From Candidatus Altiarchaeota archaeon (lineage in GTDB: Archaea; Altiarchaeota; Altiarchaeia; IMC4; QMZM01), in contig JAFGDV010000012.1 of assembly GCA_016931955.1 (NCBI GenBank), positions 37,510 through 101,509 of the forward strand: a stretch of 64,000 nucleotides of DNA. Direction: 5' to 3'. Positions 21,666-34,773 of the stretch are shown here, piece after piece. Position numbers and translations under genes: made by a program. The notes under the pieces were generated by a model. The model was not told the DNA's origin, did not search any database, and worked only from the letters and a program-made list of their open reading frames with translations. The number at the start of each line of letters is the position of its first letter. Within the stretch, counting starts at the first letter, position 1.

Positions 21666-21666
21666 A

Positions 21667-21918: not shown

Positions 21919-21924
21919 AGCATA

Positions 21925-22025
21925 CAATCTGACATAGGATACGTGTTCTACGAGATCGAGCTTGCTCTTACCGCCCCCATGCGGTCGACGAAGGGGATGG
22001 AAATAGCCGCAGACCAGGATCTCTA
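21925..22025. repeat. Degenerate copy of the 3' end of GT2 gene 28347-29063 (att-like)
   Basis: ctgacataggatacgtgttctacgagatcgagcttgctcttaccgcccc… aligns to 28375-28440. Near-identical to the copy at 26521-26590. Confidence 0.6.
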
Positions 22026-22118
22026 AGAGGATAGGGATACAGCCGCCTGAGACACTAAAAGCCCACCGAAACATCTGATAACGGAGTTGTTACTTTCTGG
22101 TGTAGCATTTTTAAACAT

Positions 22119-22140
22119 ATGTTACGTTATAATGTAACAT
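22119..22140. promoter_or_regulatory. Perfect palindrome ATGTTAC-N8-GTAACAT between a TATA-like ttttaaac and the ATG of ATPase 1
   Basis: atgttacgttataatgtaacat overlaps start codon 22139. Operator-like position on a leaderless promoter. Confidence 0.35.
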
Positions 22141-23419
22141 GGAACTACGTAAATTAGCCGAAGCCAACCCCTGGTGGCAGACCAAAAAAGTACCACAAAA
22201 CCTCCGAGGACGCGACAGACCCAAATACAGACTACTCCTAAAATCAATCACACAAAAAGAAGTCACAATAATAACCGGAGTCAGACGCTCAGGAAAAAGC
22301 ACACTAATGTACCAGACCATAGACAACCTACTCAAAGAAAAAACACCCCCAAAACAGATACTATTCGTCAACCTAGAAGACCCAAGACTCACAAACGACA
22401 CACTAGACGACATATACGAAGCATACAGAAGCGGAATCAACCCCGACCAGAAGGCACACATCTTCCTAGACGAAATACACCGAAGAGAAAACTGGGAAAA
22501 ATGGGTCAAAAGACACTACGACCTCGGCACAGACTGCAAATTCACAATCTCAGGATCATGCTCATACCTCCTGAAAAAAGAATACTCAACACTACTCACA
22601 GGCAGAAACCTCACCTTCGAAGTATTCCCCCTAAGCTTCCAAGAATACCTCACCTTCAAAGGCATCAACTTAGACGCCGAAGCACTGGAAAAAGACATCC
22701 TCCTAGAGAAACAGAGACACGAAATCCAGAAGGCGATGAACGAATACATGGAAGAAGGAGGCTTCCCAGACGCGTTCTTCAAAGAAGAAGACTTCAAGAG
22801 ACTGCTCCTAACACAATACTTCGACGACATAATATACAAAGACATCGTAGACCGCCACGAACTAAACAGCCGCAAAACAAGAGACCTTGCACTATACCTC
22901 GCATCCAACATCACCTCCCCACTATCCCTCAGAAACATCAGAAACACGCTCGGACTATCCTACGAATCAATAAAAGACTACATCACATACTACGCCGAAG
23001 CATTCCTCTTCTTCACAGTCGAACACTTCTCCTACTCCCTCAAAGAACAGAAGACACGCCCCTCAAAAGCATACTGCATAGACAACGGCCTCCGAAACGC
23101 AGTAAGCTTCAAGTTCACAAAAGACGACGGAAAACTAGCCGAAAACCTAGCCTACCTCCACCTAAGACAAAACAAAGACGACATATACTACTGGAAAGAC
23201 AAAAACGAAGTAGACTTCATAACAAAAAACCCCGACCACACACTAACCGCCATAAACGTCACATACACAGATGAAGTGGACGAAAGAGAAATAAAGTCGC
23301 TCAAAGAATTCAAACAAAAACACAAAAAAACACAAGAACTCATAATAATCACAAAAAACACCCAAAAAACACAAGAAGAAATCAAGTACATACCACTATG
23401 GAAGTGGCTGCTAGAATAG
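22139..23419 (+). CDS. COG1373-type ATPase (AAA_14 + DUF4143-like)
   Basis: N-terminal NPWW, Walker A GVRRSGKSTLM, Walker B …IFLDEIH…, C-terminal …IPLWKWLLE*. Strongly A/C-skewed coding strand. Confidence 0.7.
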   Translation: MELRKLAEANPWWQTKKVPQNLRGRDRPKYRLLLKSITQKEVTIITGVRRSGKSTLMYQTIDNLLKEKTPPKQILFVNLEDPRLTNDTLDDIYEAYRSGINPDQKAHIFLDEIHRRENWEKWVKRHYDLGTDCKFTISGSCSYLLKKEYSTLLTGRNLTFEVFPLSFQEYLTFKGINLDAEALEKDILLEKQRHEIQKAMNEYMEEGGFPDAFFKEEDFKRLLLTQYFDDIIYKDIVDRHELNSRKTRDLALYLASNITSPLSLRNIRNTLGLSYESIKDYITYYAEAFLFFTVEHFSYSLKEQKTRPSKAYCIDNGLRNAVSFKFTKDDGKLAENLAYLHLRQNKDDIYYWKDKNEVDFITKNPDHTLTAINVTYTDEVDEREIKSLKEFKQKHKKTQELIIITKNTQKTQEEIKYIPLWKWLLE

Positions 23420-23454
23420 AGACTAACCCAGATACTCCGAGGTTTAATTTACAT

Positions 23455-23481
23455 TTGCCGCCCACGCGGTCGACGAATAAA
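23455..23481. repeat. Short relic of the GT2 3'-end repeat (gccgcccacgcggtcgacgaa)
   Basis: Matches the ccgcccccatgcggtcgacgaa core of the copies at 21961 and 26540. Confidence 0.4.
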
Positions 23482-23530
23482 CAAAATTTGCCGTTACAAG
23501 GGCAAAGTTTTAAAAGAAAATTCACCCACA

Positions 23531-23576
23531 AATGCAATATTTATGCATAAATATTGCAATAGACTGCAATATTTAA
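23531..23576. promoter_or_regulatory. Nested palindromic operator-like element (three TGCAATATTT/AAATATTGCA half-sites; ATTTATGCATAAAT)
   Basis: Upstream of ATPase 2. A paralogous ~50-bp copy lies at 29132-29185. Confidence 0.35.
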
Positions 23577-23599
23577 ATACAACAACCACTATATATAAC

Positions 23600-24925
23600 A
23601 TGGACAAAAACACCCTCAGAGCAACAATAATATCACAAAAAAAAGAAACAAAAAAAATACTAAAACAAGAAAAAATCATAGAAAGAGAACTACAAAAAGA
23701 AACAGAAAAACAACTAAAAAACAACCTCATCAAGATCACCACAGGCGTCAGAAGATGCGGAAAATCAACCCTCGCCCTACAAACACTCCAAGACAAAGAA
23801 CACGCCTACATCAACTTCGACGACGAAAGACTCTACAAGATCACGACAAAAGACCTCGACACAATCCTAGAAACACTATATGAAGTATACGGAAACTTCA
23901 AATACCTCCTCCTAGACGAAATACAGAACATACCTGGATGGGAGCTATACGCAAACAGACTACAAAGACAAGGCCTCAACCTCATAGTAACCGGAAGCAA
24001 CGCAAAACTACTAAGCAAAGAACTTGCAACACACCTAACAGGAAGACACATCACACTTGAACTATACCCCTTCTCCTTCAGAGAATACCTAAGCTACCAC
24101 AAAATCAGCCCCCAAAAAGAAGACCTACAAATCGCAGAAGGCATCGGAAAAATCAAAAAACACCTAAGAGACTACATAGAAAAAGGCGGATTCCCCGAAA
24201 CATACAAAATCAAAGACAACACAAGATACCTAAAAGACCTCTACAACTCCATCATAAACCAAGACATCATAAGCAGATACAACATAAAATACGCAAACAC
24301 GCTAAGAGAGATAATCTCCTACACCATCTCAAACTACGCAAGCCCAATAACCTACAAAAAAATAAAAAACATATTCGACATAAAAAGCCAACACACAATA
24401 AAAAACTACCTCTACTACGCAGAAGAATCATACCTGATAACCCAGAGCCTACAATACACACACAAAATAAAAGAACAAACACGACTGCCCAAAAAAATCT
24501 ACGCCATAGACACAGGCCTCATAAAAGCAATAGGATTCAAGGCATCAGAAAACACCGGCAGACTAATGGAAAACCTCATCGCAATAGAACTACAGAGAAA
24601 AAAAACACAAAACCCCCTCCTAGAAATATACCACTGGAGAGACTACCAAAAAAGAGAAGTCGACTTCGCAGTCAAAGAAGGCCTAAAAGTAAAGGAACTA
24701 ATCCAGGCATGCTACGACATCGAAGACCCAAAAACAAAGGAGAGGGAAGAAAAAGCATTGATAAAAGCCGGGAAAGAACTCAGATGCAAAAACCTCAAAA
24801 TAATAACCTGGGACCACGAAGAAACAGGGAGAATAGAGTATATCCCACTATGGAAGTGGCTGCTGCAGCCGACGGGTTTTGTCCCGGCGACTGAGGAGAA
24901 TGTAGTGCCTAACCCAACAAATTAG
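23600..24925 (+). CDS. COG1373-type ATPase paralog
   Basis: Start chosen at MDKNTLRA (23600). Walker A GVRRCGKSTLA. C-terminal …IPLWKWLL, then a read-through tail. Confidence 0.65.
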   Translation: MDKNTLRATIISQKKETKKILKQEKIIERELQKETEKQLKNNLIKITTGVRRCGKSTLALQTLQDKEHAYINFDDERLYKITTKDLDTILETLYEVYGNFKYLLLDEIQNIPGWELYANRLQRQGLNLIVTGSNAKLLSKELATHLTGRHITLELYPFSFREYLSYHKISPQKEDLQIAEGIGKIKKHLRDYIEKGGFPETYKIKDNTRYLKDLYNSIINQDIISRYNIKYANTLREIISYTISNYASPITYKKIKNIFDIKSQHTIKNYLYYAEESYLITQSLQYTHKIKEQTRLPKKIYAIDTGLIKAIGFKASENTGRLMENLIAIELQRKKTQNPLLEIYHWRDYQKREVDFAVKEGLKVKELIQACYDIEDPKTKEREEKALIKAGKELRCKNLKIITWDHEETGRIEYIPLWKWLLQPTGFVPATEENVVPNPTN

Positions 24926-24964
24926 GCACCAAACCCAAAAAAAACACCCCGAATAGGGGAAAAC

Positions 24965-26311
24965 CTAAGGCAACCCCAATAAAGAGAAAAGCCACGCCGG
25001 AATATAATATATTACTATACTATCTGTTCCCCCTCTCCTCAGCTGATTCCTCGTCACCAAAACCGCCTCACCTACACCGTATTTTTCGCAGAATTTAGTT
25101 AGGCTACGAATGTCTTTCTTGTTAATGTAGGTCTGATACTTGACTTCGACAGGCAGCAGCCTTTTGTCCGCTAATACAATATCCACCTCATCCTTCTGCG
25201 GCGTACGCCAGAAAGATATCTTCTGCAGACTACCCACTATCTGAGACTCTATGAGATGACCTGCTATCCCACCACCTTCAAGCATGCTAAAGGGTTGATC
25301 CAATAACGCCAACACAATAGATGGGTGGACTATGAACTGTTTCTTGCTTGCACGCACCTGCTTAGATACGTTGACAGAGTAGTTGTAGGCCACCTTAATC
25401 AGAAAAGATTTCTCTAGTAGGCTTACATACTCTGCCGCCTGATTTCGGTTAATCCTGAGGTTGCCTGCTATGTTCACCAACTCAAAGAGTTGGGCGTTCG
25501 CCGCAGCCAGCAGCCTGAGCAATTCGTAGACCACGTTCTCATTCCCCCTGCTAGCCCGACTTATGTCTTCGACGGTTTTCTCTATCACCGACTCCCGAAT
25601 ATACTTTTTAATGTATTCTTCGTCGTCTTCGTCAAACAGCTCAGGGAAGGCGCCCCTCTCCAAGTATTGGATGAACAGTTCCATGTATCTAGCCCTATTC
25701 GCAGCGAAATGCAGGTCATATTCTCGTATCATGTTTTCGTTCAAGGCTATCTCGTCCCTAAGACCAAAGTATCTCACAAACTCCCTGAAGGAAAGTACTG
25801 GCAGATGAAAGGATAGTATCCTGCCGGCAAGCGTTTCCCTGTATTTCCTCAGCTCAAGAGACGATGACCCGGAGACAAAAATCTTCAGGTTCTCTTCGGT
25901 GTCATAGACAGTCTTAAGGAGATCAGGGAAGTTAGGAAGCTTCTGCACCTCGTCGAGGAAAAGATACCTCATACCTTTCCCATCAGAAAACTCCAGAAAG
26001 TAGTTGATTAGATCCCATGCCACCTCATACCTCTGGAAGTCTATGTCGTCGAAGGAGATATAGCAGACGTTCTTTTCTTCGGTCTTCACCAGAAGCTTCT
26101 TTATCATCTGCTTGAGTAAGACAGTCTTGCCTACGCGCCGCAGACCCACGACTGCCAGAATCTGCCTATTTTGACAGTATTTGAGTAGGTCTCCCATGAG
26201 GTCTCTCTCAAACTCTGGAGTAGTGAAGTCTTTTTTCTCCCACCACGGGTTCTGCCTGAAAAGCAGTCTACTGTGTCTTTCGTCCATCGTATTATCTATT
26301 AGGAAGAACAT
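24965..26311 (-). CDS. COG1373-type ATPase paralog
   Basis: …QNPWWEKKDF…GLRRVGKTVLL…YIPAWLFSLL. Confidence 0.65.
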   Translation of the reverse strand: MFFLIDNTMDERHSRLLFRQNPWWEKKDFTTPEFERDLMGDLLKYCQNRQILAVVGLRRVGKTVLLKQMIKKLLVKTEEKNVCYISFDDIDFQRYEVAWDLINYFLEFSDGKGMRYLFLDEVQKLPNFPDLLKTVYDTEENLKIFVSGSSSLELRKYRETLAGRILSFHLPVLSFREFVRYFGLRDEIALNENMIREYDLHFAANRARYMELFIQYLERGAFPELFDEDDEEYIKKYIRESVIEKTVEDISRASRGNENVVYELLRLLAAANAQLFELVNIAGNLRINRNQAAEYVSLLEKSFLIKVAYNYSVNVSKQVRASKKQFIVHPSIVLALLDQPFSMLEGGGIAGHLIESQIVGSLQKISFWRTPQKDEVDIVLADKRLLPVEVKYQTYINKKDIRSLTKFCEKYGVGEAVLVTRNQLRRGGTDSIVIYYIPAWLFSLLGLP

Positions 26312-26321
26312 CCTTATAAAG

Positions 26322-26380
26322 TTTATGCACTAAAAACGTGCACAAAATAAAATTTTATGCACAAAAACTGTGCACAGAAT
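26322..26380. promoter_or_regulatory. Tandem 27-bp operator-like repeat, each unit with a TGCAC-N8-GTGCA inverted repeat
   Basis: tttatgcactaaaaacgtgcacaaaat / tttatgcacaaaaactgtgcacagaat, directly upstream of ATPase 3 on the minus strand. Confidence 0.35.
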
Positions 26381-26415
26381 CTAAAAAGCCACAAGATTAA
26401 GAACGACGCTATTGA

Positions 26416-26600
26416 TTATCTCCCCAAAAAACCAGGGAAAGCATTCAAACACTACGAATAAAAAAAGAACTGGAAAAACTGAAACATATAGTCTACATCA
26501 CAGAAGAAGAAAAAAACTAAAGGCCGAGCTTGCTCTTACCGCCCCCATGCGGTCGACGAAGGAGATGGAGATGGCCGCAGACCCTCAACTGCCCCAGACC
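26416..26600. repeat. Direct repeat: ~105-bp intergenic segment plus a degenerate GT2 3'-end copy (partner at 28246-28440)
   Basis: tccccaaaaaaccagggaaagcattcaaacactacgaataaaaaaag… aligns with 28246-28350. gagcttgctcttaccgcccccatgcggtcgacgaagg aligns with 28406-28440 and is near-identical to 21961-22000. Confidence 0.65.
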
Positions 26601-26710
26601 CCTTGCCACAGAATCCTCAGACATTATAAGGTACAGATGACAAAAAACATAGTATTCCATCAGATACAACCAACAATATTTAAACCCAGAAAACAAAAAT
26701 AAGATAAAAG

Positions 26711-28093
26711 ATGACAATCATCGACTCCCTGAAAGCCCAAAACGAATGGTGGAAGACCGGGAAAGTACCCACAGCACTCCTAAAAAAAACCAAAAGAGAA
26801 GAATACAAGACAGCAGAAAAACTCCTCAAAGAAGAAAGAATAACCGCAATAACCGGACCACGCAGAACCGGAAAAACAACCCTCCAATACCAGCTCATAC
26901 ACCACCTCCTCCAAGAAACCGAACCCAACAAGATACTCTACATATCCATGGACGACCCATCACTAAGACCCCACACACAAAACCTCCTACAAGAAATACT
27001 GGAAACCTACTACAGAGAAATCCTCCTCGAAGAAAAAAGAAACACACAAGTCCACGTCTTCATAGACGAAATACACTTCCACACAAACTGGGAACAATGG
27101 CTGAAAAAATACTACGACCAAAGATACCCAATAAAATTCACGATAACAAGCTCATCCTCAGCCCACCTATCACAGAAGTCAAAAGAAAGCCTCGTCGGAC
27201 GAATCATCGAAATACTACTACTCCCCCTAAGCTTCAGAAGCTACCTCGCCCTCACAGGAAAAAACCAGCTCACAGAACACTACAACAAACTCAGCCTCGA
27301 AACAATAGACGCAGACAAAAGATTCCAGCTGCTAAAACACGAAGAAGAAGCACGGATCATGTTCTCAAAATACCTCCTATACGGAGGACTGCCCGAGTCC
27401 ATAAAAACAGGAGAAATACACCTATGGCAGGAAAAACTAATATCAGACGTCCTAAGAAAAGTTATATACAGAGACATCACAGGACTCTACGACGTCAGAA
27501 CACCCACAAAACTCGAAGACCTCTTCGTCCACCTCACATACAACACCAGCAAAACATTCTCATACACCTCCCTCTCCCAAAACCTCGGCATAAGCACAGA
27601 AGCCATAATAAACTACACACGCTACCTCCAGGAATCCTACCTCATAGGCGAACTACGACTCCACACAAAAAGCATCGAAAAAAGCCTCCGAGCCAACAGA
27701 AAATACTTCATAATGGACTGCGGACTACAGAACGCCATAACAAAAACCACCGACCTAACCGAAGCCAACACAGGCCCACTAATAGAATCCACAATCGAAA
27801 AACACCTCTACGCATACGCCAAAAAAGAAAACCACAACCTACACTACTGGAGAGAAAAAGAAGAAGTAGACATAATACTAGACACCAAAAAAAAGACACT
27901 ACCAATAGAGGTAAAATACAAAAACAAGATAAAAAAAGAAGACATGCGAGGACTACTCAAATTCATGGACAAATACAAAACAGACAAAGGATACATGATA
28001 ACCAAAGACCTCCTCCAAAAACAAAAAATCAACGGAAAAGAAATCCAACTAATACCAGCATGGCTATTCCTACTAGCAATACCCGCCGCCTAA
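26711..28093 (+). CDS. COG1373-type ATPase paralog
   Basis: …QNEWWKTGKVP…GPRRTGKTTLQ…LIPAWLFLLAIPAA. Confidence 0.65.
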   Translation: MTIIDSLKAQNEWWKTGKVPTALLKKTKREEYKTAEKLLKEERITAITGPRRTGKTTLQYQLIHHLLQETEPNKILYISMDDPSLRPHTQNLLQEILETYYREILLEEKRNTQVHVFIDEIHFHTNWEQWLKKYYDQRYPIKFTITSSSSAHLSQKSKESLVGRIIEILLLPLSFRSYLALTGKNQLTEHYNKLSLETIDADKRFQLLKHEEEARIMFSKYLLYGGLPESIKTGEIHLWQEKLISDVLRKVIYRDITGLYDVRTPTKLEDLFVHLTYNTSKTFSYTSLSQNLGISTEAIINYTRYLQESYLIGELRLHTKSIEKSLRANRKYFIMDCGLQNAITKTTDLTEANTGPLIESTIEKHLYAYAKKENHNLHYWREKEEVDIILDTKKKTLPIEVKYKNKIKKEDMRGLLKFMDKYKTDKGYMITKDLLQKQKINGKEIQLIPAWLFLLAIPAA

Positions 28094-28245
28094 AAAAAAA
28101 AGACTGAGACAACAGCCTGCTTCTTTCCCGCCTGAACATATAAAAAGATCACTATTAGCATGATCATGGTTATACAATTCAGAAACCAAGTGACTGAACC
28201 CTAAGACCTGAAAGAAATAATAGGAAACAACAACGAATCAGCTTA

Positions 28246-28440
28246 TAATCTATCCCCAAAAAAAAACCAGGGAAAGCATTCGAACACTACGAATAAAAAA
28301 AGATCCAGGAAAAAACCAGCCTGCATCACAGAAGAAGAAAAAAAAACTACTTCAGATACAGGCGGAGACAATGCCTGACATAGGATAAGTGTTCTCCGAG
28401 ATTAAGCTTGCTCTTACCGCCCTCTCGGTCAATGAAAGTG
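28246..28440. repeat. Resident copy of the direct repeat (intergenic ~105 bp plus the genuine 3' end of the GT2 gene)
   Basis: See 26416-26600. Confidence 0.65.
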
Positions 28441-29063
28441 ATCGGGACCTCCTTGACTCGGGAATAGCGGCCGCGAACCAGTATTTCTAAGAGGATCTTG
28501 AAGCCGACCGGGTTAAGGACGACGCCGTCAATAACTTCTCTGCGGAAGAAGAAGAAACCAGAGACCGGATCCCTGACAGAGGTGAGGGGGCGAGCCAAGA
28601 GGACAGCACCCCGAGAGGTTAGACGACGACGAAGAGGCCAATTCTGGATACAACCGCCACGGACATAGCGGCTGCCGACGGAGACATCGGCTTCGCCCCG
28701 CAAAATAGGAGCCACCAAAGCAGGAATAGCGTCTAGGGGATGAGAGAAGTCGGCGTCCATGACGCCAAATATGCCGCCCGAAGCCTGAGAGAAGCCGGCG
28801 AGGACGGCAGAGGAAAGACCTAATTTGCCGGAGCGGACGATGATTTTAAGATCGGGGTAAGGGCTTTGAAGAGAACGGACGACTTCGGCGGAGCCATCTG
28901 GGCTGTTGTCGTCTACGATGATCAGTTCACCGCGGAGGTCGTTGCGGGAAAAAACCTTGAAGAAGGCAGGAATAAGCTTGGATAAGTTCTCGCGTTCATT
29001 ATAGGTGGGTACGACGACTGAGACCCTGGAGTTCTCCAAGGGAGGGAAAGAAGTCCTATGCAT
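28347..29063 (-). CDS. GT2 dolichol/polyprenol-phosphate mannosyltransferase-like (Dpm1-type, soluble form)
   Basis: …VSVVVPTYNERENL…VDDNSPDGS…DADFSHP… GC-rich (core-like) composition, unlike its neighbours. Confidence 0.7.
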   Translation of the reverse strand: MHRTSFPPLENSRVSVVVPTYNERENLSKLIPAFFKVFSRNDLRGELIIVDDNSPDGSAEVVRSLQSPYPDLKIIVRSGKLGLSSAVLAGFSQASGGIFGVMDADFSHPLDAIPALVAPILRGEADVSVGSRYVRGGCIQNWPLRRRLTSRGAVLLARPLTSVRDPVSGFFFFRREVIDGVVLNPVGFKILLEILVRGRYSRVKEVPITFIDREGGKSKLNLGEHLSYVRHCLRLYLK

Positions 29064-29131
29064 GATAAAGGATATAAACAGATACGGAAATAAATAAGTT
29101 TGCTGTTATGAGGTGGGGATAATCTACCCAC

Positions 29132-29185
29132 GGATGCAATAGTTATGCATAGATATTGTAATAGACTGCAGTATTTGGATACGAT
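29132..29185. repeat. Copy of the ATPase-2 upstream palindromic element
   Basis: ggatgcaatagttatgcatagatattgtaatagactgcagtatttggatac is ~85% identical to 23531-23580. Confidence 0.45.
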
Positions 29186-29209
29186 AATAAAAGATCACTG
29201 AGGGATAAT

Positions 29210-29245
29210 GGGAGGGGCTGCTAGGATAGAGGAGTTGATACCCCA
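29210..29245. repeat. Relic of the ATPase 3'-terminal motif plus the left 21-bp direct repeat of the AbiE-like module
   Basis: tgggaggggctgctaggatagag matches tggaagtggctgctagaatagag (23401-23423) at 20 of 23 positions. gatagaggagttgatacccca recurs at 31174-31193. Confidence 0.5.
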
Positions 29246-29307
29246 GTAGTCGTCGAGGACAAAGGAGAAGAAAGCCCCACGCATTTTACGGAACATACAC
29301 GGTAATG

Positions 29308-29350
29308 TACTAAAAATAGTAAAAAAAATGATATTTTACTAAAAATAGTA
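29308..29350. promoter_or_regulatory. Two TACTA-N4-TAGTA palindromes 29 bp apart next to a TATA-like tttatagg, upstream of the AbiEi-like gene
   Basis: tactaaaaatagta at 29308-29321 and 29337-29350. ATG at 29379. Confidence 0.4.
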
Positions 29351-29378
29351 TTTATAGGTGAAAAACACATAACATAAC

Positions 29379-30221
29379 ATGCTAGAACTGATCTACGGGA
29401 CAAAAACAAAGACCAGGATACTGGAAGAGCTCGCAACAGCAGGAAAACCAAAGACCAGAAAAGAACTAATAGAGCTGACAGGATGCGGCACCAGGGGAGT
29501 ATACGAGCAGACAGAGGAACTAATAACCCTAGGCATAGTCAAAGAAACCAAGAAAGGCTGGAAAAAACTAGAGCTAAACCCAGAACACCCACTATACCAG
29601 GACATCAAAAACACGGCACTCGCAGCAATAGACTACAAAAAAAACCTCATAAAAAACCTCCTCCAGACAATAGACCAAATACTAGAAGACGACTACTATA
29701 TCGGATTCTACACAGCAGCCACAAAAAAAATCACACCAATCGACTACACACCAGAGAAACACGTATACAAGGTACTGGACACAGAATACGAAAAAAAAAT
29801 AAAGAAAATCAAAACATACGACAAACTAAGGGAAATAGACATACAAAAAGAGAAAAAAGGGTTGATTAAGGCAGTATTCCTAAAATGCCAGAAAATCCCG
29901 GAAGACGTGACAAGAGAAGAAATACAAAACCAGGAAGTGTGGATAGCAAGCACGGAGAGGGGTATAGTAGAATGCTTCACCCCAGAAAACAAATACTTCA
30001 CCAGATACGGAAGCTGCCTGGCCCTGCTACAAAACAAAATAGAAAACACAATAGACGAAAAACAACTACTGAAAATAGCAGGAGAACTCAACATAAAAAA
30101 AGAACTAGTTAAAGTCATGGGCAGCTTCAACCACCACCTCAAAAAAAGACTATTCAACGCAGAACCCAACACAGAAGAGATCAAAGAAGTCAAACAGGCG
30201 ATAAACACGGTATTAGGATGA
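29379..30221 (+). CDS. AbiEi-like antitoxin / transcriptional regulator (N-terminal wHTH)
   Basis: TRILEELATAGKPKTRKELIELTGCGTRGVYEQTEELITLGIV winged-helix. Stop overlaps the start of the downstream NTase by 4 bp. Confidence 0.5.
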   Translation: MLELIYGTKTKTRILEELATAGKPKTRKELIELTGCGTRGVYEQTEELITLGIVKETKKGWKKLELNPEHPLYQDIKNTALAAIDYKKNLIKNLLQTIDQILEDDYYIGFYTAATKKITPIDYTPEKHVYKVLDTEYEKKIKKIKTYDKLREIDIQKEKKGLIKAVFLKCQKIPEDVTREEIQNQEVWIASTERGIVECFTPENKYFTRYGSCLALLQNKIENTIDEKQLLKIAGELNIKKELVKVMGSFNHHLKKRLFNAEPNTEEIKEVKQAINTVLG

Positions 30222-31177
30222 AGACAACATACACGACAGAAGAAAAAGAAGGGATCCTAGGCATAATAGAAACCTGGGGGAGAGAACAGATAACCCAAGA
30301 CGTCTTCAGAAAAATACAACTACAGACAGGCATACCTTCAGGACTGATAGAGACAACATTCTGGCACATAGACACACTCTATCAGCTGAAAAAACTCGAA
30401 AAACCACCCATATTCAAAGGAGGAACCTGCGTACAATGCTACATCCCAGCAGGCCTGCAGAGAGCATCAAACGACCTAGACTTCAATTCAAGGATAGCCA
30501 ACCCAGCCACCATAAGGGAGCAGATAAAAAAACTAAACAAAAAACTGCTAAACAAAGGAAACGCCACACAGATAAAAAAATACGGCGAAAGAATAAGCTA
30601 TGGAACATTCGACTACCAGCTAAAAGACGAAATATCCGGTGTTATAACATTCAACAGGAGAATGCCCTCCCGCCTTGGAGAATACGTCAAAGCAGGCGAA
30701 CTAGAGGTTCAGGCAAAAAACATGAAAATCCAGGTAAACTACAAACACGCCTGGATGCCCGCAATAAAGACGATAGACAAAAAACCAAGATTCTTCATAC
30801 TCGAACACCAAAAAATGAAAGGATTCACCTACCCAAGCTCAAGCCTGAACGACCTAATCGCCGACAAAATACTTGCAACAACAAAAGAAACGGGGAGAGA
30901 ACGATTCAAAGACGTATACGACCTGATGACTCTGTTCATGCAAAAATACGAGAAAAAACAGATACTCGAGAAACTGGAGAGGATACTGGAGAAGAAAGGG
31001 CAACAACCAGAGACCACGATAAAATCCTCGGCAACGAATATCGGGAGATTCACAGAAAAAAGCCTCGAAGCACAAGGATTCAAAAGCCTCGTATGCAAAG
31101 ACGGCAGAAAACTCATAGAAAACTGGGAAACCAACTGCTTAAAGCTAACAGAGAAGATGAACTCGTTGCTGAGATAG
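30218..31177 (+). CDS. AbiEii-like nucleotidyltransferase toxin (DUF1814 / Pol-beta NTase fold)
   Basis: FKGGTCVQCYIPAGLQRASNDLDFNS matches the hGG…DhDh NTase motif of AbiEii-family toxins. Translationally coupled to the upstream wHTH gene. Confidence 0.55.
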   Translation: MKTTYTTEEKEGILGIIETWGREQITQDVFRKIQLQTGIPSGLIETTFWHIDTLYQLKKLEKPPIFKGGTCVQCYIPAGLQRASNDLDFNSRIANPATIREQIKKLNKKLLNKGNATQIKKYGERISYGTFDYQLKDEISGVITFNRRMPSRLGEYVKAGELEVQAKNMKIQVNYKHAWMPAIKTIDKKPRFFILEHQKMKGFTYPSSSLNDLIADKILATTKETGRERFKDVYDLMTLFMQKYEKKQILEKLERILEKKGQQPETTIKSSATNIGRFTEKSLEAQGFKSLVCKDGRKLIENWETNCLKLTEKMNSLLR

Positions 31178-31194
31178 AGGAGTTGATCCCATGG
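31174..31194. repeat. Right 21-bp direct repeat of the AbiE-like module (gatagaggagttgatcccatg)
   Basis: Matches 29225-29245 at 20 of 21 positions. Overlaps the toxin stop codon. Confidence 0.5.
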
Positions 31195-31354
31195 AAGACC
31201 CCTTGAGGAGGAGGCTTCTCGATTAATCTTGATTAAAGATCTCATGGTATAACCTTTAACTTCAATAGGGAGGTAGGGGTAGGGTGATATGCGTATTTAT
31301 ATACTTATGTTCACTATAGTATACAAAATATGAGGAATTTGTTCACCGAATAAG

Positions 31355-32641
31355 ATGGAGCACAGAAAAATCATAATACAATGGAAAGAATACACACCAC
31401 CGAAGACACAACCCAGAGAAGTGAACATCGACCCCACAACAGACTTCATCACCACAATAACAGGCCCAAGAAGAGCAGGCAAAACATACCTCTGCTACCA
31501 GCTAATGAACCACCTAATAGACAAAGGAACCCCCCGAGAAAACATCCTATACGTGAACTTCGAAGACGAAAAACTCATAGGGGCTAAAGCAGCAGACCTC
31601 GAAAAACTGATGAACACATTCCAAGAACTAACAGACACCAACCCAGAACACAACACCTACCTCTTCCTCGACGAAATACAGAACGTCAAAGACTGGGACG
31701 CATGGATAAGGAGAATACACGACACCCAAAAAAACGTGAAACTAATACTCACAGGCTCATCCTCCAAGATGCTAAGCCGAGAAGTCACAACAAAACTACG
31801 CGGCAGAATACTAAACCACGAAGTATACCCCCTAAGCTTCAAAGAATACCTCACATGGAAAAACACCCCATACAACCTAAAAACACTAACAGAAAGCAGA
31901 GACAGAATCGAAGTAAAAAAACAATACAATGAATACCTGACAAACGGAGGCTACCCCACAATAGCACTCAACCAAGCACCCAGAGAACAGATACTCCAAA
32001 GCTACTACGAATCAATGATATTCAAGGATGTGGTAGAAAGACACAACATCAAAGACGTCAAAAAACTGCGCATACTCGCAAAACTACTATTCGAATCCAC
32101 ATCAAAAGAGATGTCCTACAACAGGCTAGCAAACAAACTCAAATCCCTCGGATTCACAGCAAGCAAAAACACCATAATAGAACACATCAGCCACTTCGAA
32201 GACGCATACCTATTCTTCCAGAACATGAAACACGAGTACTCCATCACAAAACGGATGGGTGCGATAAAAAAGATCTACTGCATAGACAACGGACTACTCA
32301 ACACAGTCAGCTTCAAATTCGCAGAAGACACCGGAAAACTGATGGAAAACCAAGTCTACATAGAACTAAAACGCAGAAACAAACAAGTCTACTACCACAA
32401 AGACAAACACGAATGCGACTTCCTCACACAAGAAAAAAACAAGATCACATCAGCCATACAAGTAACCCACACACTAAACGACGAAAACGAAGACCGAGAA
32501 ATAAACGGCCTACTTGAAGCCATGAGAACCCACAACCTACAAGATGGAACCATCCTCACCTTCGAACAAGAAGAGACAAGAAAAAAAGACGACAAAACAA
32601 TACGGATCACACCAGTCTGGAAGTGGCTGCTGGAGACATGA
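31355..32641 (+). CDS. COG1373-type ATPase paralog
   Basis: …ITGPRRAGKTYLCY…FLDEIQN…ITPVWKWLLET*. Confidence 0.65.
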   Translation: MEHRKIIIQWKEYTPPKTQPREVNIDPTTDFITTITGPRRAGKTYLCYQLMNHLIDKGTPRENILYVNFEDEKLIGAKAADLEKLMNTFQELTDTNPEHNTYLFLDEIQNVKDWDAWIRRIHDTQKNVKLILTGSSSKMLSREVTTKLRGRILNHEVYPLSFKEYLTWKNTPYNLKTLTESRDRIEVKKQYNEYLTNGGYPTIALNQAPREQILQSYYESMIFKDVVERHNIKDVKKLRILAKLLFESTSKEMSYNRLANKLKSLGFTASKNTIIEHISHFEDAYLFFQNMKHEYSITKRMGAIKKIYCIDNGLLNTVSFKFAEDTGKLMENQVYIELKRRNKQVYYHKDKHECDFLTQEKNKITSAIQVTHTLNDENEDREINGLLEAMRTHNLQDGTILTFEQEETRKKDDKTIRITPVWKWLLET

Positions 32642-32711
32642 GATCGAAAGAAAAACAGACCAGAGAGTATCTTTGTTGACCAAAATTTATAAATAATGGA
32701 CAACATAGATG

Positions 32712-32788
32712 TAAAGTGATAACATGGGACCGCGAAGAAAAAGGGAGAATAGAATACATACCACTATGGAAGTGGCTGCTGGAATAAA
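32712..32788 (+). pseudogene. 3'-terminal fragment of a COG1373 ATPase gene (ATPase-2-like)
   Basis: ataacatgggaccgcgaagaaaaagggagaatagaatacataccactatggaagtggctgctggaataa is ~88% identical to 24799-24866. No upstream ORF. Confidence 0.5.
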
Positions 32789-32984
32789 GAGGTTATTTCA
32801 TAGATGGCTGCTTGAGGCAGAAAGAGAAGAGCCCAGAAGAGAGCAAGGTAGTGCCCTGGAAAAGGCAAGATATAAAGGAGGTGAGGGGAAATAGGGGATA
32901 TAGTAGGGGCTCCGATGAATGCATCCCAACGAGGATAGAGAGAAAAGCTTTTAATCCCATATCGACAGAATACTTTAAGAGAAG

Positions 32985-33185: not shown

Positions 33186-34060
33186 CGCTGAGAAGAGAAT
33201 TAAAGAAAAAATTCACTTATACGGGAGAACTAGAACCCGGGAAGATTTCAGAGTTAAAGGAGATAGTAGAGGAAGCCAGGAAACTGAAGAAGTATGTTAC
33301 GGCATGTAATGTAACAGACAACCCGCAAGCTTATGCGTACATAAGCAGCCTGGCGGCGTCGTATATGATACAGGAGAAGGCCGGGATGGAGGCCATATAT
33401 CAGCTGACTTGCAGAGACAGGAATCGATTAGCGCTGACTTCAGAGCTGCTGGGGGCGGCGGCGCTGGGGATAAAGAATGTGCTGGCGTTGACTGGAGACT
33501 ACACTACGTTGGGGGATATGCCTGAGGCGAAGCCTGTATTTGATTTAGATGCGTGCCGGCTAGTGCATATGATCAAGGAGATGAACGAGGGAAGAGATAT
33601 AAAGGGGAACCGAATAGAACCTAGGACGGAATTCTTTATCGGAGTCGCAGCGAACCCCAACGCTATACCATTAGAACCGGAGATACTGAAGCTGGAGAAG
33701 AAAGAAAAAGTGGGGGCGGAATTCGTGCAGACTCAGGTAGTGTATGAGATGGAGATAGTAGAGAATTTCCTGGAGGCAACGAAGAACGTGGAGATACCGA
33801 TACTGATCGGGGTGTTCCCGCTGAGATCATACGGGGTAGCGGAGTACTTCGACAAGAACGTGCCCGGAGTCAAGGTACCCGAAAAACTGTTGAAGGAACT
33901 GAAGGAGATAAAGGAGGCTGGGGGGGCTCGGGAGGAATACGATAAAGTCAATGAAAGATTCTTTTCCGGACTAATAAAAGGGATAAAGAAGACTGATGCG
34001 AGGGGATGCCATATAATGGCGGTGAATTACTCGGAGATTGTGGAGAAGCTGGTCGTCTAA
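33173..34060 (+). CDS. metF: Methylenetetrahydrofolate reductase-like (MetF)
   Basis: 295-aa TIM-barrel MTHFR signature (…VTDNPQAYAYISSLAASYMIQEKAGMEAIYQLTCRDRNRLAL…ALTGDY…). Confidence 0.65.
   Translation: MHEMTLRRELKKKFTYTGELEPGKISELKEIVEEARKLKKYVTACNVTDNPQAYAYISSLAASYMIQEKAGMEAIYQLTCRDRNRLALTSELLGAAALGIKNVLALTGDYTTLGDMPEAKPVFDLDACRLVHMIKEMNEGRDIKGNRIEPRTEFFIGVAANPNAIPLEPEILKLEKKEKVGAEFVQTQVVYEMEIVENFLEATKNVEIPILIGVFPLRSYGVAEYFDKNVPGVKVPEKLLKELKEIKEAGGAREEYDKVNERFFSGLIKGIKKTDARGCHIMAVNYSEIVEKLVV
34001..34053. repeat. 53-bp direct repeat (genuine 3' end of metF), left copy
   Basis: aggggatgccatataatggcggtgaattactcggagattgtggagaagctggt. Partner at 34721-34773 with 2 mismatches. Confidence 0.7.
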
Positions 34061-34398
34061 GTTTTTTCCATAAGGATCTTTTTGATGATGGGTCTGACCA
34101 CTGGTATGTCCTCCTTCACGACAAGCCACACCCTCTTAGGGTCCATCCCAAAGTAGAAATGGATAGCCTTATCCCTCATACCCGCTATATCCCGCCAAGG
34201 CACTTCAGGATGCTTATCCTTCACAGGAGAAGGCACGTTTTTTGCCGCTTCGCCTATGACCTCGACACATCGGATGACGGCTTATTGAGTCTTCTCATCC
34301 CCTAAAAACACGTCATAAGACATATCTCTGATGAATTCCTCGGCAAGCTCCATGTTCTCCAACATATCCTTCAGATAGATTGACACGTTCCTTTTCAT
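34057..34398 (-). pseudogene. HEPN (DUF86) toxin gene with an in-frame TAA stop
   Basis: Minus-strand translation gives MKRNVSIYLKDMLENMELAEEFIRDMSYDVFLGDEKTQ*AVIRCVEVIGEAAKNV…RDKAIHFYF… (Rx4HxY HEPN motif). The stop is at 34282-34284. Start overlaps the MNT stop by 2 bp (34396-34397). Confidence 0.5.
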
Positions 34399-34688
34399 AC
34401 ATAAACCGCCTCCTCTAGGACTCTATCCCGCAACTCAGCGCGAAGATCCTTTTTAGGAACAACATCAGCCTTAACGCCGAGAACATCACCCAAGAAATTC
34501 TCCAAGCCAACAATCCTGAGAAGACTCACCGGCTCCTCGAATTCGACGAGGAAGTCAACATCACTTGACTCATCCTGCTCACCCCTGACATAAGACCCAA
34601 AAACACCGATACTCTTAACCATAAACCTCCTCGAAAGCTCAGCCCTATGCTTAGACAAAGCAGTCCTAATGTCACCAAGGGTTACCAT
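34395..34688 (-). CDS. Minimal nucleotidyltransferase (MNT) antitoxin
   Basis: GVFGSYVRGEQDESSDVDFLVEF, the Pol-beta NTase motif of MNT antitoxins. 97 aa. Confidence 0.7.
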   Translation of the reverse strand: MVTLGDIRTALSKHRAELSRRFMVKSIGVFGSYVRGEQDESSDVDFLVEFEEPVSLLRIVGLENFLGDVLGVKADVVPKKDLRAELRDRVLEEAVYV

Positions 34689-34720
34689 ATTAGGATATTG
34701 GACTTAGAAACTATAAGCCA

Positions 34721-34773
34721 AGGAGATGCCATATAATGGCGGTGAATTACTCGGAGATTGTGGAAAAGCTGGT
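34721..34773. repeat. 53-bp direct repeat, right copy (duplicated metF 3' end, retains a stop)
   Basis: aggagatgccatataatggcggtgaattactcggagattgtggaaaagctggt. Confidence 0.7.

What the first reader, a model, noticed from the sequence alone, without database searches (positions are those of the whole stretch)
22139..32641. Array of five divergent COG1373 (AAA + DUF4143-like) ATPase paralogs, each with a different palindromic operator
Five full genes and one fragment lie within 11 kb. Orientation is mixed, N-termini are divergent and there are two C-terminal subtypes (IPLWKWLL and IPAWLFLL). Each gene is preceded by a distinct inverted-repeat element sitting between a TATA-like box and the ATG. 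These are ATGTTAC-N8-GTAACAT (22119-22140), nested AAATATTGCA sites (23531-23576), and tandem TGCAC-N8-GTGCA (26322-26380). Diversified, individually regulated paralog arrays next to TA and abortive-infection genes resemble defence-island architecture. COG1373 ATPases have, as I recall, been flagged as enriched in archaeal defence islands, though I cannot verify that here. Alternatively each gene may be a single-gene selfish element.
Basis: partly seen in the sequence, partly recalled or inferred. Interest (0 to 1): 0.6.

Follow-up and report, generated by a model that had tools for sequence, protein, structure and literature searches.

The report
Self-regulated ATPase-nuclease gene cassettes, stacked
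Five divergent copies of a very common but untested archaeal "candidate antiviral" gene lie together in one variable island; they appear to have arrived one at a time, and most of them carry a private palindromic control site that travels with the gene between distant archaea.

Summary
The window, from a Candidatus Altiarchaeota MAG, has exactly five full AAA_14+DUF4143 genes and one 3' fragment. All five match PADLOC's untested phage-defence candidate PDC-S01. AlphaFold models show a STAND/Orc-like nucleotide-binding, helical and winged-helix module followed by an alpha-beta-beta-beta-alpha-beta domain that Pfam and the literature class as a PD-(D/E)XK nuclease. The catalytic E..D..ExK motif is intact only in g3 and g4, the IPAWLF tails. 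It is degenerate in g1, g2 and g5, the WKWLL tails. Palindromes are real for g1, g2 and g3, weaker for g5 and absent for g4. They are conserved with each gene's orthologues: 15 of 15 g1-type genes keep two GTTAC-N8-GTAAC sites 33 nt apart around the TATA box, including copies on MAGs labelled Woesearchaeota and Heimdallarchaeaceae. Strong promoter palindromes are family-wide (p=2e-19). The neighbours are only 25-37% identical to g1, while g1, g3, g4 and g5 have 64-81% relatives elsewhere. Genes are bounded by decayed copies of a glycosyltransferase 3' end, and a related genome carries a different gene set at the same locus. Best reading: independently acquired, probably self-repressed single-gene cassettes in a small TA/Abi island. 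The family is known. I found no published description of the self-operator or the cassette footprints.

The parts
22139..23419 (+). g1: 426-aa PDC-S01 / COG1373 protein (AAA_14 + DUF4143), WKWLL tail, nuclease motif III degenerate (INVTY)
22089..22140 (+). g1 promoter: distal site GTTAC-N8-GTAGC (22089-22106), TATA-like ATTTTTAAA (22107-22115), proximal site ATGTTAC-N8-GTAACAT (22119-22140) ending on the start codon
   Evidence: the same layout is found in 15/15 g1-type genes
23600..24925 (+). g2: 441-aa family member (true start 23600), WKWLL tail, motif III degenerate (IQACY)
23533..23579 (+). g2 promoter: perfect 26-bp palindrome TGCAATATTTATG|CATAAATATTGCA (23533-23558), third half-site (23565-23575) overlapping TATA-like TTTAAATA (23572-23579)
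   Evidence: a related three-half-site layout is seen in the 53% relative L145
24965..26287 (-). g3: 440-aa family member (the ORF extends to 26311; the M9 start is used by the NCBI model), IPAWLF tail, E..D..ExK intact
26314..26375 (-). g3 promoter: TATA TTTATAA (26314-26320) and two tandem TGCAC-N7-GTGCA sites (26326-26343, 26358-26375) upstream of it
   Evidence: conserved in orthologues L252, L254 and L255
26711..28093 (+). g4: 460-aa family member, IPAWLFLL tail, E..D..ExK intact. It has a TATA-like AATATTTAAA at 26675-26684 but no palindrome
   Evidence: AF2 pLDDT 93.7
31355..32641 (+). g5: 428-aa family member, WKWLL tail, motif III degenerate (IQVTH)
31297..31346 (+). g5 promoter: TATA TTTATATA (31297-31304) followed by three half-sites, TGTTCAC (31308-31314), GTATACAAA (31319-31327) and TTTGTTCAC (31338-31346)
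   Evidence: conserved in L252 (81% aa), L111 and L123 (59%)
32680..32784 (+). 3' fragment of a sixth, g2-like gene ('g6'); the last ~23 codons and the stop are 88% identical to the g2 3' end
   Evidence: 87% identical to the 3' end of gene B in L252
29092..29195 (+). Orphan copy (~80%) of the g2-type promoter with all three half-sites (palindrome 29135-29160) and no gene behind it; probably the promoter of the gutted g6
28347..29063 (-). Host GT2 glycosyltransferase whose 3' end is the recurrent junction sequence
   Evidence: Pfam; 72% aa orthologue in L252
21929..22015 (-). Remnant A: pseudo-copy of the GT 3' end (…GGKSKLDLVEHVSYV…*), with a 2-nt insertion shared with remnant C, just left of g1
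23440..23480 (-). Remnant B: a shorter, in-frame GT 3'-end remnant (FVDRVGGKCKLNLG) just left of g2
26425..26583 (.). Remnant C, a chimera: its left part is 91% identical to the sequence downstream of GT (28261-28313), and its right part is 95% identical to remnant A; it lies just left of g4
28260..28346 (.). Degenerate copy of the 3' part of the 83-aa ORF (21667-21918), lying between g4 and the GT stop codon
29379..31177 (+). AbiEi-like (29379-30221) and AbiEii (30218-31177) toxin-antitoxin / abortive-infection pair, with its own repeats upstream
   Evidence: Pfam AbiEii 2.2e-16; PADLOC AbiEii/AbiEi
34057..34688 (-). MNT (34395-34688) plus a split HepT (34057-34398) cassette inserted at the MTHFR 3' end, flanked by 53-bp direct repeats (34001-34053 and 34721-34773, 96% identical)

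Best explanation
The region is a small variable island in an Altiarchaeota genome, lying between a cell-surface glycosylation cluster and Wood-Ljungdahl genes. Five different members of one gene family, and the wreck of a sixth, have accumulated there as separate single-gene cassettes.

Each protein is a compact P-loop switch. It has a nucleotide-binding domain, a helical domain and a winged helix, arranged as in STAND NTPases, Orc1/Cdc6 and the archaeal ATPases 2qen and 2fna. This is fused to a C-terminal PD-(D/E)XK nuclease-type domain. That is the PADLOC candidate defence family PDC-S01 (COG1373).

Four of the five cassettes bring a private promoter in which clade-specific palindromic sites flank, overlap or abut the TATA box and the start of a probably leaderless mRNA. 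The most likely mechanism (inferred) is that a dimer of the gene's own product binds these sites through its winged helix and represses its own transcription. A potentially harmful ATPase-nuclease would then be held at a low, self-set level wherever the gene lands.

The inferred activity is an NTP-dependent switch that acts on DNA. g3 and g4 keep a complete catalytic site. g1, g2 and g5 have lost the (D/E)xK motif and probably bind DNA without cutting it, or use other residues.

The cassettes entered next to the 3' ends of host genes by recombination that duplicated the gene end. This left decayed copies of the glycosyltransferase 3' end between them.
For: Shown.
- Family identity: Pfam; PADLOC PDC-S01 with E 3e-57 to 2e-118.
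- The C-terminal domain has alpha-beta-beta-beta-alpha-beta topology. E..D..ExK is conserved in the g3/g4 clade and lost in g1, g2 and g5. There are sub-threshold hits to Hjc, Mrr_cat and DUF234 on this same region. DUF4143 is listed as a PD-(D/E)XK family in PMC3424549.
- Operators are conserved with the gene. All 15 g1-type genes (58-80% aa) carry G[TC]TA[CT]-N8-[GA]TA[AG]C. In 14 of 15 there are two sites 32-34 nt apart, usually around the TATA box, and the proximal site ends on the A of the ATG in 10 of 15. There are none in 69 other family promoters and 24 in 1.1 Mb of other sequence. The set includes copies on Woesearchaeota- and Heimdallarchaeaceae-labelled MAG contigs.
- The g3 and g5 operators are likewise conserved in their orthologues.
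- Family-wide test: best inverted-repeat score 7.88 against 5.60 for neighbouring ORFs and 5.69 for shuffles; 47% against 7% score 8 or more; p=1.8e-19.
- Homology between orthologous cassettes starts at the distal operator or TATA box and ends at or within about 115 nt of the stop codon.
- Residues that are conserved within each clade but differ between clades are found in the winged helix and helical domain (13 of 38 conserved columns) and are absent from the nuclease domain (0 of 25). They include the first turn of the recognition helix (SYD / NRN / SIE). The wing is basic in all clades.
- Acquisition: g2-g5 are 25-37% identical to g1, against 64-81% for the best relatives elsewhere of g1, g3, g4 and g5. 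Four non-identical copies of the GT 3' end lie at the cassette borders. There is an orphan g2-type promoter and an orphan 3' end. The orthologous locus L252 shares g3 and g5 but lacks g1, g4 and AbiE. Flanking imperfect direct repeats (24-177 nt) surround 8 of 62 family genes elsewhere, against 2 of 471 controls (p=8e-7).
Against: - No binding, ATPase or nuclease activity was or could be tested. That the gene's own product binds the sites is an argument from parsimony: the sites travel with a single gene across hosts.
- g4 and its two orthologues examined have no clear palindrome, so self-operators are not universal in the family.
- In STAND proteins the winged helix serves autoinhibition, not DNA binding.
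- A k-mer test linking promoter sequence to the residues of the reading helix was weak and confounded by relatedness.
- The nuclease fold of the C-terminal domain was not confirmed by a domain-level structure search; whole-chain searches return only ATPase matches.
- Defence function rests on a candidate list that has not been tested experimentally.
- The recombination mechanism is unknown. There is no recombinase in the island, and the repeats are imperfect.
- MAG taxonomic labels on short contigs can be wrong.
Confidence: 0.6

Rival explanations
1. The genes form a coordinated paralogue array made by tandem duplication and diversification in place. It works as one multi-specificity defence locus, as some immune gene arrays do.
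For: There are five members within 11 kb, with different operator specificities and two nuclease subtypes. A related genome also has four members at the same locus.
Against: g2-g5 are only 25-37% identical to g1, while g1, g3, g4 and g5 have 64-81% relatives in other genomes. The junction remnants are 91-96% identical to each other, so they are far younger than the divergence between the genes they separate. L252 shares only g3 and g5. The unit conserved between orthologues is one gene with its promoter.
Confidence: 0.07
2. Each gene is a purely selfish, minimal mobile element. Its ATPase, winged-helix and nuclease protein recognises the palindromes as cis sites and promotes its own excision and integration. 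The defence association is incidental.
For: There are flanking direct repeats around single genes, and insertion repeatedly occurs at host gene 3' ends. Spread across phyla occurs with the promoter attached. The 5' edge of the conserved unit coincides with the distal operator. There is no other recombinase in the island. Members are present on plasmids and on a virus- or plasmid-like contig.
Against: There are no terminal inverted repeats and no fixed-length target duplication. The repeats vary from 24 to 177 nt, are 81-95% identical and differ at every locus, which fits homologous (Campbell-type) recombination better than a site-specific enzyme. The most widely spread clade (g1) lacks the nuclease (D/E)xK motif. 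The fold is a STAND/Orc-like switch, not a known transposase or integrase. Only 13% of the genes show such repeats.
Confidence: 0.15
3. The palindromes are not operators for the gene's own product. They are binding sites for a host regulator, RNA hairpins in the 5' leader, or chance features of AT-rich promoters.
For: The promoters are AT-rich, and short inverted repeats are common there. g4 has none. No binding data exist.
Against: The sites differ between clades yet are near-invariant within a clade, across hosts labelled as different phyla. Several lie upstream of the TATA box and so are not transcribed. The arms are conserved while the spacers vary, as expected for binding by a protein dimer. 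They are far stronger than in neighbouring promoters or in shuffled sequence.
Confidence: 0.1

Closest known systems
PADLOC phage-defence candidate PDC-S01 (COG1373; Pfam AAA_14 + DUF4143)
   Same: It is the same family. All five proteins give full-length HMM matches (E down to 2e-118) and have the same ATPase plus PD-(D/E)XK architecture. PDC-S01 is reported as the fourth most common candidate system in prokaryotes and as enriched in Archaea.
   Different: Nothing differs at the family level. I found no description of clade-specific self-operators, of loss of the nuclease motif in a large clade, or of cassette footprints in the papers retrieved with the terms DUF4143, COG1373 and PDC-S01.
STAND NTPase defence proteins (Avs/AVAST, and the NLR, Apaf-1 and CED-4 type)
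   Different: There is no repeat sensor domain (TPR, WD40 or LRR). The protein is only 426-460 aa and the effector is C-terminal. Here the winged helix is proposed to read DNA, which is not its role in STAND proteins.
Archaeal 'Arch_ATPase' proteins (PF01637, often with DUF234; PDB 2qen PABY2304 and 2fna SSO1545)
   Different: They belong to different Pfam families; the matches to PF01637 and DUF234 here are only sub-threshold. Their function is also unknown.
Orc1/Cdc6 initiators next to their origins
   Same: Both have an AAA-type ATPase with a winged helix, and inverted recognition sites immediately upstream of the protein's own gene that flank an AT-rich element.
Self-repressing mobile defence and addiction modules (AbiEi of AbiE, C-proteins of restriction-modification systems, type II antitoxins)
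   Same: The logic is the same: palindromic sites on the module's own core promoter, inherited together with a horizontally mobile and potentially toxic gene. This comparison rests on general knowledge. AbiE itself sits in this island with its own upstream repeats.
   Different: Here the regulator and the effector would be a single polypeptide, and binding has not been demonstrated.

Membership tests
PDC-S01 / COG1373 (AAA_14 + DUF4143) | AAA_14 P-loop domain above the Pfam gathering score | tested here: met
   120-141 bits against a cut-off of 27 for all five proteins
PDC-S01 / COG1373 (AAA_14 + DUF4143) | DUF4143 domain C-terminal to the ATPase, above the gathering score | tested here: met
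   70-104 bits against a cut-off of 28.1 for all five proteins
PDC-S01 / COG1373 (AAA_14 + DUF4143) | Full-length match to the PADLOC PDC-S01 models | tested here: met
   PDLC04787, E 2.6e-57 to 2.4e-118, covering nearly the whole profile
PDC-S01 / COG1373 (AAA_14 + DUF4143) | Walker A G-x-RR-x-GK[ST] and Walker B hhhhDE | tested here: met
   G47, R49, R50, G52, K53, D111 and E112 are invariant among the five proteins and in 39- and 46-sequence alignments
PDC-S01 / COG1373 (AAA_14 + DUF4143) | Complete PD-(D/E)XK catalytic set (E on helix 1, D on strand 2, (D/E)xK on strand 3) in g3 and g4 | tested here: met
   g4 has E359, D387 and E400-V-K402, invariant or nearly so in its clade; g3 has EVD…VEVKY
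PDC-S01 / COG1373 (AAA_14 + DUF4143) | Complete PD-(D/E)XK catalytic set in g1, g2 and g5 | tested here: not met
   Motif III reads NVT, QAC and QVT; the g1-clade consensus is AINVxYT. E and D of motifs I and II are kept.
PDC-S01 / COG1373 (AAA_14 + DUF4143) | Protection against viruses or other mobile elements | not testable with these tools
STAND NTPases | Nucleotide-binding domain, helical domain and winged-helix module | tested here: met
STAND NTPases | Repeat sensor domain (TPR, WD40 or LRR) on the same chain | tested here: not met
   The models end after the nuclease-type domain and the proteins are 426-460 aa with no repeat region
Orc1/Cdc6-type initiator with adjacent origin | Inverted recognition boxes flanking an extended AT-rich unwinding element | tested here: not met
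   The two sites are 32-34 nt apart with only a 9-13 nt TATA-like spacer between them
Defence island | Known defence or toxin-antitoxin genes immediately adjacent | tested here: met
   AbiEi/AbiEii; MNT plus a split HepT. No restriction-modification or CRISPR genes were found among the ORFs scanned with Pfam, which cover most of 0-44 kb of the window.
Defence island | Variable gene content at a conserved chromosomal position in related genomes | tested here: met
   L252 has the same flanking genes (GT 72%, small ORF 61%, surface protein 55% aa) but a different set of family genes and no AbiE
Defence island | Statistical enrichment of the family near defence genes across genomes | not tested
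   Only anecdotal contexts were seen. The source paper says many of its new systems are not typically enriched near other defence systems.
Site-specific integrative element or integron cassette | Flanking direct repeats | tested here: met
   Window. Other loci: 8 of 62 against 2 of 471 controls.
Site-specific integrative element or integron cassette | Recombinase gene, and an identical att core shared between insertions | tested here: not met
   There is no integrase or transposase domain in the island or among the 30 flanking ORFs scanned. The repeats are 81-96% identical, 24-177 nt long, and a different sequence at every locus.
Self-repressing winged-helix regulators | Palindromic sites on the gene's own core promoter, inherited with the gene | tested here: met
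   (g1, g2, g3, g5); not met for g4
Self-repressing winged-helix regulators | Binding of the sites by the gene's own product, with repression | not testable with these tools
   Inferred only; indirect support comes from clade-specific residues in the recognition helix, and the covariation test was inconclusive

The most novel reading that the evidence does not exclude
PDC-S01/COG1373 genes are a previously unrecognised kind of minimal, autonomous single-gene element. One polypeptide would read its own promoter palindromes through the winged helix and set its own dose. It would also use the same sites, with its ATPase and nuclease-type domain, to promote its own excision, integration or replication next to host gene 3' ends. 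That would explain why the family is among the most abundant 'defence candidates' and yet is only weakly tied to defence islands.
Probability: 0.12. Interest if true: 0.85.

Novelty: new member of a known kind. Interest (0 to 1): 0.5.

Why it matters
PDC-S01 is reported as the fourth most common candidate defence system in prokaryotes, with about 10,000 copies in 7,747 archaeal genomes (PMC12988326). No mechanism or regulation was described for it in the papers retrieved with the terms DUF4143, COG1373 and PDC-S01.

This locus, together with about 90 related loci, supplies three concrete and testable handles:
1. A clade-specific operator code. The clearest case is the GTTAC-N8-GTAAC pair around the TATA box, which predicts that the protein is a sequence-specific DNA binder and its own repressor.
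2. A natural split into clades with and without an intact nuclease motif.
3. Footprints showing that the genes move as single-gene cassettes into host gene 3' ends.

These make it possible to design binding, reporter and nuclease experiments directly. They also caution against reading every PDC-S01 hit as an active nuclease-based defence.

Tried and rejected
1. Orthologous-locus comparison through the glycosyltransferase. The genome-contig scan found no close relative (best 56% aa). The orthologous locus L252 was found later, by chance, through a g3 homologue.
2. IMG/VR scans with g2 and g3 alone found nothing. An alignment query found 84 distant hits at 25-35% identity, which were not analysed further.
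3. PDB sequence searches, with a single protein and with a profile, gave only P-loop matches. PHROGs gave nothing useful.
5. A covariation test comparing shared promoter k-mers with identity in helix 2, helix 3 and the wing gave a signal only in the 50-70% identity bin, and that is confounded by relatedness. I treat it as inconclusive.
6. Palindromes for g4: none in the window, and nothing convincing in the two orthologues.
7. An RNA-hairpin or terminator reading of the palindromes was rejected because several sites lie upstream of the TATA box.
8. An origin-of-replication reading was rejected because the AT-rich spacer is only 9-13 nt.
9. The Logan contig L001, which ends in the A/C repeat at both ends, was considered as evidence for a circular form. 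It was rejected because the overlaps equal k-1 (30 nt), which is an assembly-graph break.
10. I tried to reconstruct the exact order of insertions from remnants A-D. The copies are mosaics (C has a D-like left part and an A-like right part, and A and C share a 2-nt insertion), so no unique history could be derived.
11. Literature searches for DUF4143, COG1373, PDC-S01, AAA_14 and PABY2304/SSO1545 found no functional study.

Full report
**1. What is there.**
A family HMM searched against all six reading frames of the 64-kb window finds exactly five full-length genes and one short fragment. The genes are g1 22139-23419 (+), g2 23600-24925 (+), g3 24965-26287 (-), g4 26711-28093 (+) and g5 31355-32641 (+). 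The fragment lies at 32680-32784. All five proteins pass the Pfam gathering thresholds for AAA_14 and DUF4143. All five give full-length matches to the PADLOC models of the 'phage defence candidate' PDC-S01 (E 3e-57 to 2e-118). g2-g5 are 25-37% identical to g1.

Between g4 and g5 lie a GT2 glycosyltransferase (28347-29063, -) and an AbiEi-like/AbiEii pair. The source is a MAG labelled Candidatus Altiarchaeota.

Two gene starts need correcting. g2 begins at 23600; the ATG at 23543 lies inside the palindrome. g3 most likely begins at M9 (26287), which is also the NCBI model of 440 aa.

**2. What the proteins are.**
AlphaFold2 models built on alignments of homologues are confident: g1 has pLDDT 90.7 and pTM 0.89, and g4 has 93.7 and 0.91. 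The layout has four parts:
- a P-loop nucleotide-binding domain;
- a helical domain;
- a winged helix (g1 residues about 244-313);
- a C-terminal alpha-beta-beta-beta-alpha-beta domain (about 330-420).

The C-terminal domain is assigned to PD-(D/E)XK on four grounds: its topology; sub-threshold Pfam hits to Hjc, Mrr_cat and DUF234 on exactly this stretch; the listing of DUF4143/COG1373 as a PD-(D/E)XK family in PMC3424549; and a conserved E…D…ExK set. A domain-level fold search could not be run.

**3. Two functional subtypes.**
g3 and g4 (IPAWLF tails) keep the helix-1 E, the strand-2 D and the strand-3 ExK; in g4 these are E359, D387 and E400-x-K402, invariant or nearly so in its clade. g1, g2 and g5 (WKWLL tails) keep E and D but read NVT, QAC and QVT where ExK should be. 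The 35-member g1 clade has the consensus AINVxYT. So three of the five genes probably do not cut DNA in the canonical way.

**4. The palindromes are real, gene-specific and inherited with the gene.**
In the window:
- g1 has a 10/11 inverted repeat ending on its start codon, plus a second site upstream of the TATA box.
- g2 has a perfect 26-bp palindrome and a third half-site that overlaps the TATA box.
- g3 has two tandem TGCAC-N7-GTGCA sites just upstream of its TATA box.
- g5 has three weaker half-sites between the TATA box and the ATG.
- g4 has none.

Orthologues settle whether these sites matter. All 15 g1-type genes examined (58-80% aa identity) carry G[TC]TA[CT]-N8-[GA]TA[AG]C. In 14 of 15 there are two sites 32-34 nt apart, usually one on each side of the TATA box, and the proximal site ends exactly at the A of the ATG in 10 of 15. 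The arms are conserved and the spacers vary. The motif is absent from 69 other family promoters and occurs 24 times in 1.1 Mb of other sequence. The set includes a 124-kb contig of a Woesearchaeota-labelled MAG and a contig of a Heimdallarchaeaceae-labelled MAG.

The g3 orthologues (66-80%) keep both tandem sites and the TATA box. The g5 orthologues (59-81%) keep the TATA box and all three half-sites. A 53% relative of g2 has a different but similarly arranged set of three half-sites.

The pattern holds family-wide. The best inverted repeat in -80..+3 of 80 family genes scores 7.88 on average. The figure is 5.60 for 236 other ORFs on the same contigs and 5.69 for shuffled sequence. Scores of 8 or more occur in 47% against 7% (Mann-Whitney p=1.8e-19). 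The palindrome sequences differ widely between clades.

DNA homology between orthologous cassettes begins at the distal operator or TATA box and ends at or within about 115 nt of the stop codon: g1 22085-23416, g3 25036-26381, g5 31297-32641. The conserved unit is therefore promoter plus ORF.

**5. The genes were acquired separately.**
- Identity: g1, g3, g4 and g5 each have much closer relatives elsewhere than within the array. The best are 80% for g1, 81% for g3, 64% for g4 and 81% for g5. The closest relative found for g2 is only 53%.
- Junction remnants: the left border of g1, g2 and g4 carries a decayed copy of the 3' end of the glycosyltransferase gene. These are A 21929-22015, B 23440-23480 and C 26520-26583; the real gene end is at 28347-28422. 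C and the real end are each preceded by a degenerate copy of the 3' part of the 83-aa ORF that lies before remnant A.
- The remnants are mosaics. A and C are 95% identical and share a 2-nt insertion. The left part of C is 91% identical to the sequence next to the real gene.
- Spacing between copies is 1.5, 3.1 and 1.9 kb, which is one or two genes.
- A sixth, g2-like gene has been gutted. An ~80% copy of the whole g2 promoter, with all three half-sites, sits at 29092-29195 with no gene behind it. The last ~23 codons sit at 32713-32784. AbiE and g5 lie between the two pieces.
- A 1.56-Mb contig of a relative (L252) has the same flanking genes: glycosyltransferase 72%, small ORF 61% and large surface protein 55% aa. 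It holds four family genes. Two are orthologues of g3 (76%) and g5 (81%) and two are different. It has no g1, g4 or AbiE, but it does have an orphan g1-type promoter.
- The footprint recurs elsewhere. Eight of 62 family genes on other contigs lie between imperfect direct repeats of 24-177 nt (81-95% identical). The intervening unit of 1.6-2.0 kb holds only that gene. Several of the repeats are 3' ends of neighbouring host genes. Among 471 control ORFs of similar size, 2 had such repeats (Fisher p=8e-7).
- The MNT/HepT cassette in this window shows the same pattern at the MTHFR 3' end, with 53-bp repeats that are 96% identical.
- No recombinase is encoded in the island or among the 30 flanking ORFs scanned.

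**6. Context and literature.**
The island lies between a large glycosylation and surface-protein cluster and Wood-Ljungdahl genes. It contains family genes, AbiE and, a little further on, MNT/HepT. No restriction-modification or CRISPR genes were seen among the ORFs scanned.

PDC systems were predicted by 'guilt-by-embedding' in BREX, DISARM and type I RM loci and were not tested (bioRxiv 10.1101/2024.01.29.577857). PMC12988326 calls PDC-S01 the fourth most common defence across prokaryotes. It counts 9,986 copies in 7,747 archaeal genomes and describes it only as an ATPase domain fused to a PD-(D/E)XK-superfamily member. The papers retrieved with the terms DUF4143, COG1373 and PDC-S01 say nothing about operators, motif loss or cassette structure.

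Family members also occur on 151 plasmid records and 22 phage records, all below 60% identity (24-33% among those listed). Two copies lie on a virus- or plasmid-like contig.

**7. How it most likely works.**
Shown: the family identity, the fold, the state of the catalytic motifs, the conservation and placement of the sites, the unit of conservation, and the insertion footprints.

Inferred:
- (a) The sites are operators bound by a dimer of the gene's own product through the winged helix. The argument is that a single gene carries its sites into unrelated hosts, each clade has its own sites, and they lie on the core promoter. There is supporting detail. Residues conserved within a clade but different between clades lie in the helical and winged-helix domains (13 of 38 conserved columns), against none of 25 in the nuclease domain. 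They include the first turn of the recognition helix (SYD, NRN and SIE in the g1, g3 and g4 clades). The wing is basic in all clades.
- (b) Binding represses transcription by occluding the TATA/BRE region and the start site of a leaderless mRNA.
- (c) The protein is an NTP-dependent switch acting on DNA. It would have nuclease output in the g3/g4 type, and binding or sequestration only in the g1/g2/g5 type.
- (d) Cassettes integrate by recombination involving a duplicated host gene end. This is most simply Campbell-type homologous recombination of a circle carrying one copy of the repeat. That would explain repeats that are long, imperfect and different at every locus.

Defence remains a candidate function only.

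**8. Rivals.**
Tandem duplication in place is contradicted by the identities, the remnants and L252. A purely selfish element whose protein mobilises itself is not excluded. It is weakened by the lack of terminal repeats or fixed target duplications, by the variable imperfect repeats, and by loss of the nuclease motif in the most widely spread clade. Host-factor sites, RNA hairpins or chance are contradicted by clade specificity across hosts, by sites lying upstream of the TATA box, and by the statistics.

**9. Verdict.**
The genes are ordinary members of a known, abundant and uncharacterised family, so the locus itself is a new member of a known kind. Beyond that, and as far as the searchable literature shows, this analysis adds three things: the self-operator architecture conserved across phyla, the split between clades with and without the nuclease motif, and the single-gene cassette footprints. 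All three turn an uncharacterised family into something directly testable.

**10. Limits.**
- No biochemistry was possible.
- Most comparison loci are unannotated metagenome contigs, and MAG labels may be wrong.
- Start codons on those contigs were assigned by rule.
- Control ORFs were called mechanically.
- The covariation test was inconclusive.
- The order of insertions could not be reconstructed.

Noticed in passing
window 34001-34773: An MNT (34395-34688, -) plus HepT cassette is inserted at the 3' end of the MTHFR gene, between 53-bp direct repeats (34001-34053 and 34721-34773, 96% identical). HepT is split: its C-terminal half (34057-34236) matches Pfam HepT-like positions 71-120, and the N-terminal part is in a separate short ORF (34282-34398), so the toxin gene looks disrupted.
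   Followed up: partly
window 20000-34000: The + strand genes of the island (surface protein, small ORF, g1, g2, g4, AbiEi/ii, g5) have very unusual coding strands: A 0.38-0.46, T 0.13-0.19, C 0.18-0.29, G 0.14-0.23, with AT skew up to +0.56. This leaves long stop-free ORFs in other frames (for example 22174-23274 and 26746-28107). g3 on the - strand has a normal composition. The cause is unexplained; it could be codon preference for A- and C-ending codons, strand bias or foreign origin. The flanks of g1 relatives (L082, L086) look similarly rich in A and C.
   Followed up: partly
window 1-64000: The window is compositionally uneven. G+C is 0.34-0.40 in the glycosylation cluster (1-18 kb), 0.42-0.46 in the island and 0.46-0.55 in the Wood-Ljungdahl region (36-64 kb).
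   Followed up: no
L252 1-11329 (JGI Ga0315273_10000001, 1.56-Mb contig): This is the orthologous locus of a related archaeon, with four family genes. It has an orphan g1-type dual-operator promoter at about 4820-4876, followed by a GT-3'-end-like remnant, and an orphan g5-type promoter at about 1761-1818. So promoter wrecks of lost cassettes occur there too. A PMT_2 gene follows the glycosyltransferase there but not in the window; the window's PMT_2 is at 11332-12789.
   Followed up: partly
L085 1-17296 (ENA NODE_14460, 22.7 kb): A virus- or plasmid-like contig with about 20 short co-directional ORFs and a CDC48-like ATPase. It carries two family genes, one placed 6 nt after the preceding ORF, plus a Cas6 C-terminal fragment, a PDDEXK_1 gene and an Eco57I-like gene.
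   Followed up: no
L084 (Altiarchaeota GCA_043800255.1) and L256 (Woesearchaeota GCA_043817645.1): g1-type genes sit next to toxin-antitoxin-rich stretches: three Fic genes, a PIN pair and MNT/HepT in L084, and two MNT/HEPN pairs in L256. Other copies (L082, L089) sit alone among housekeeping genes.
   Followed up: no
window 18474-21665: This 1063-aa surface protein has only a weak CARDB match. It has internal repeats (20726-20857 and 20888-21019, 73% identical) that encode cysteine-rich 'GIDCGGPC' modules. It is followed by a conserved 83-aa ORF, which has a 61% aa orthologue in L252.
   Followed up: no
window 29300-29378: The AbiEi-like gene has its own upstream repeats (TAGTAAAA-N9-TTTTACTA and two copies of TACTAAAAATAGTA). 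This is consistent with the known self-repression of AbiE operons.
   Followed up: no
window 2569-3705: Two adjacent hexapeptide-repeat acetyltransferase paralogues share a 139-nt stretch that is 77% identical (2941-3079 and 3541-3679).
   Followed up: no
L082 2928-4958: A PAPS-reductase gene is interrupted by an intein with a LAGLIDADG domain, according to the precomputed Pfam annotation. It lies a few kb from a solitary g1-type cassette.
   Followed up: no
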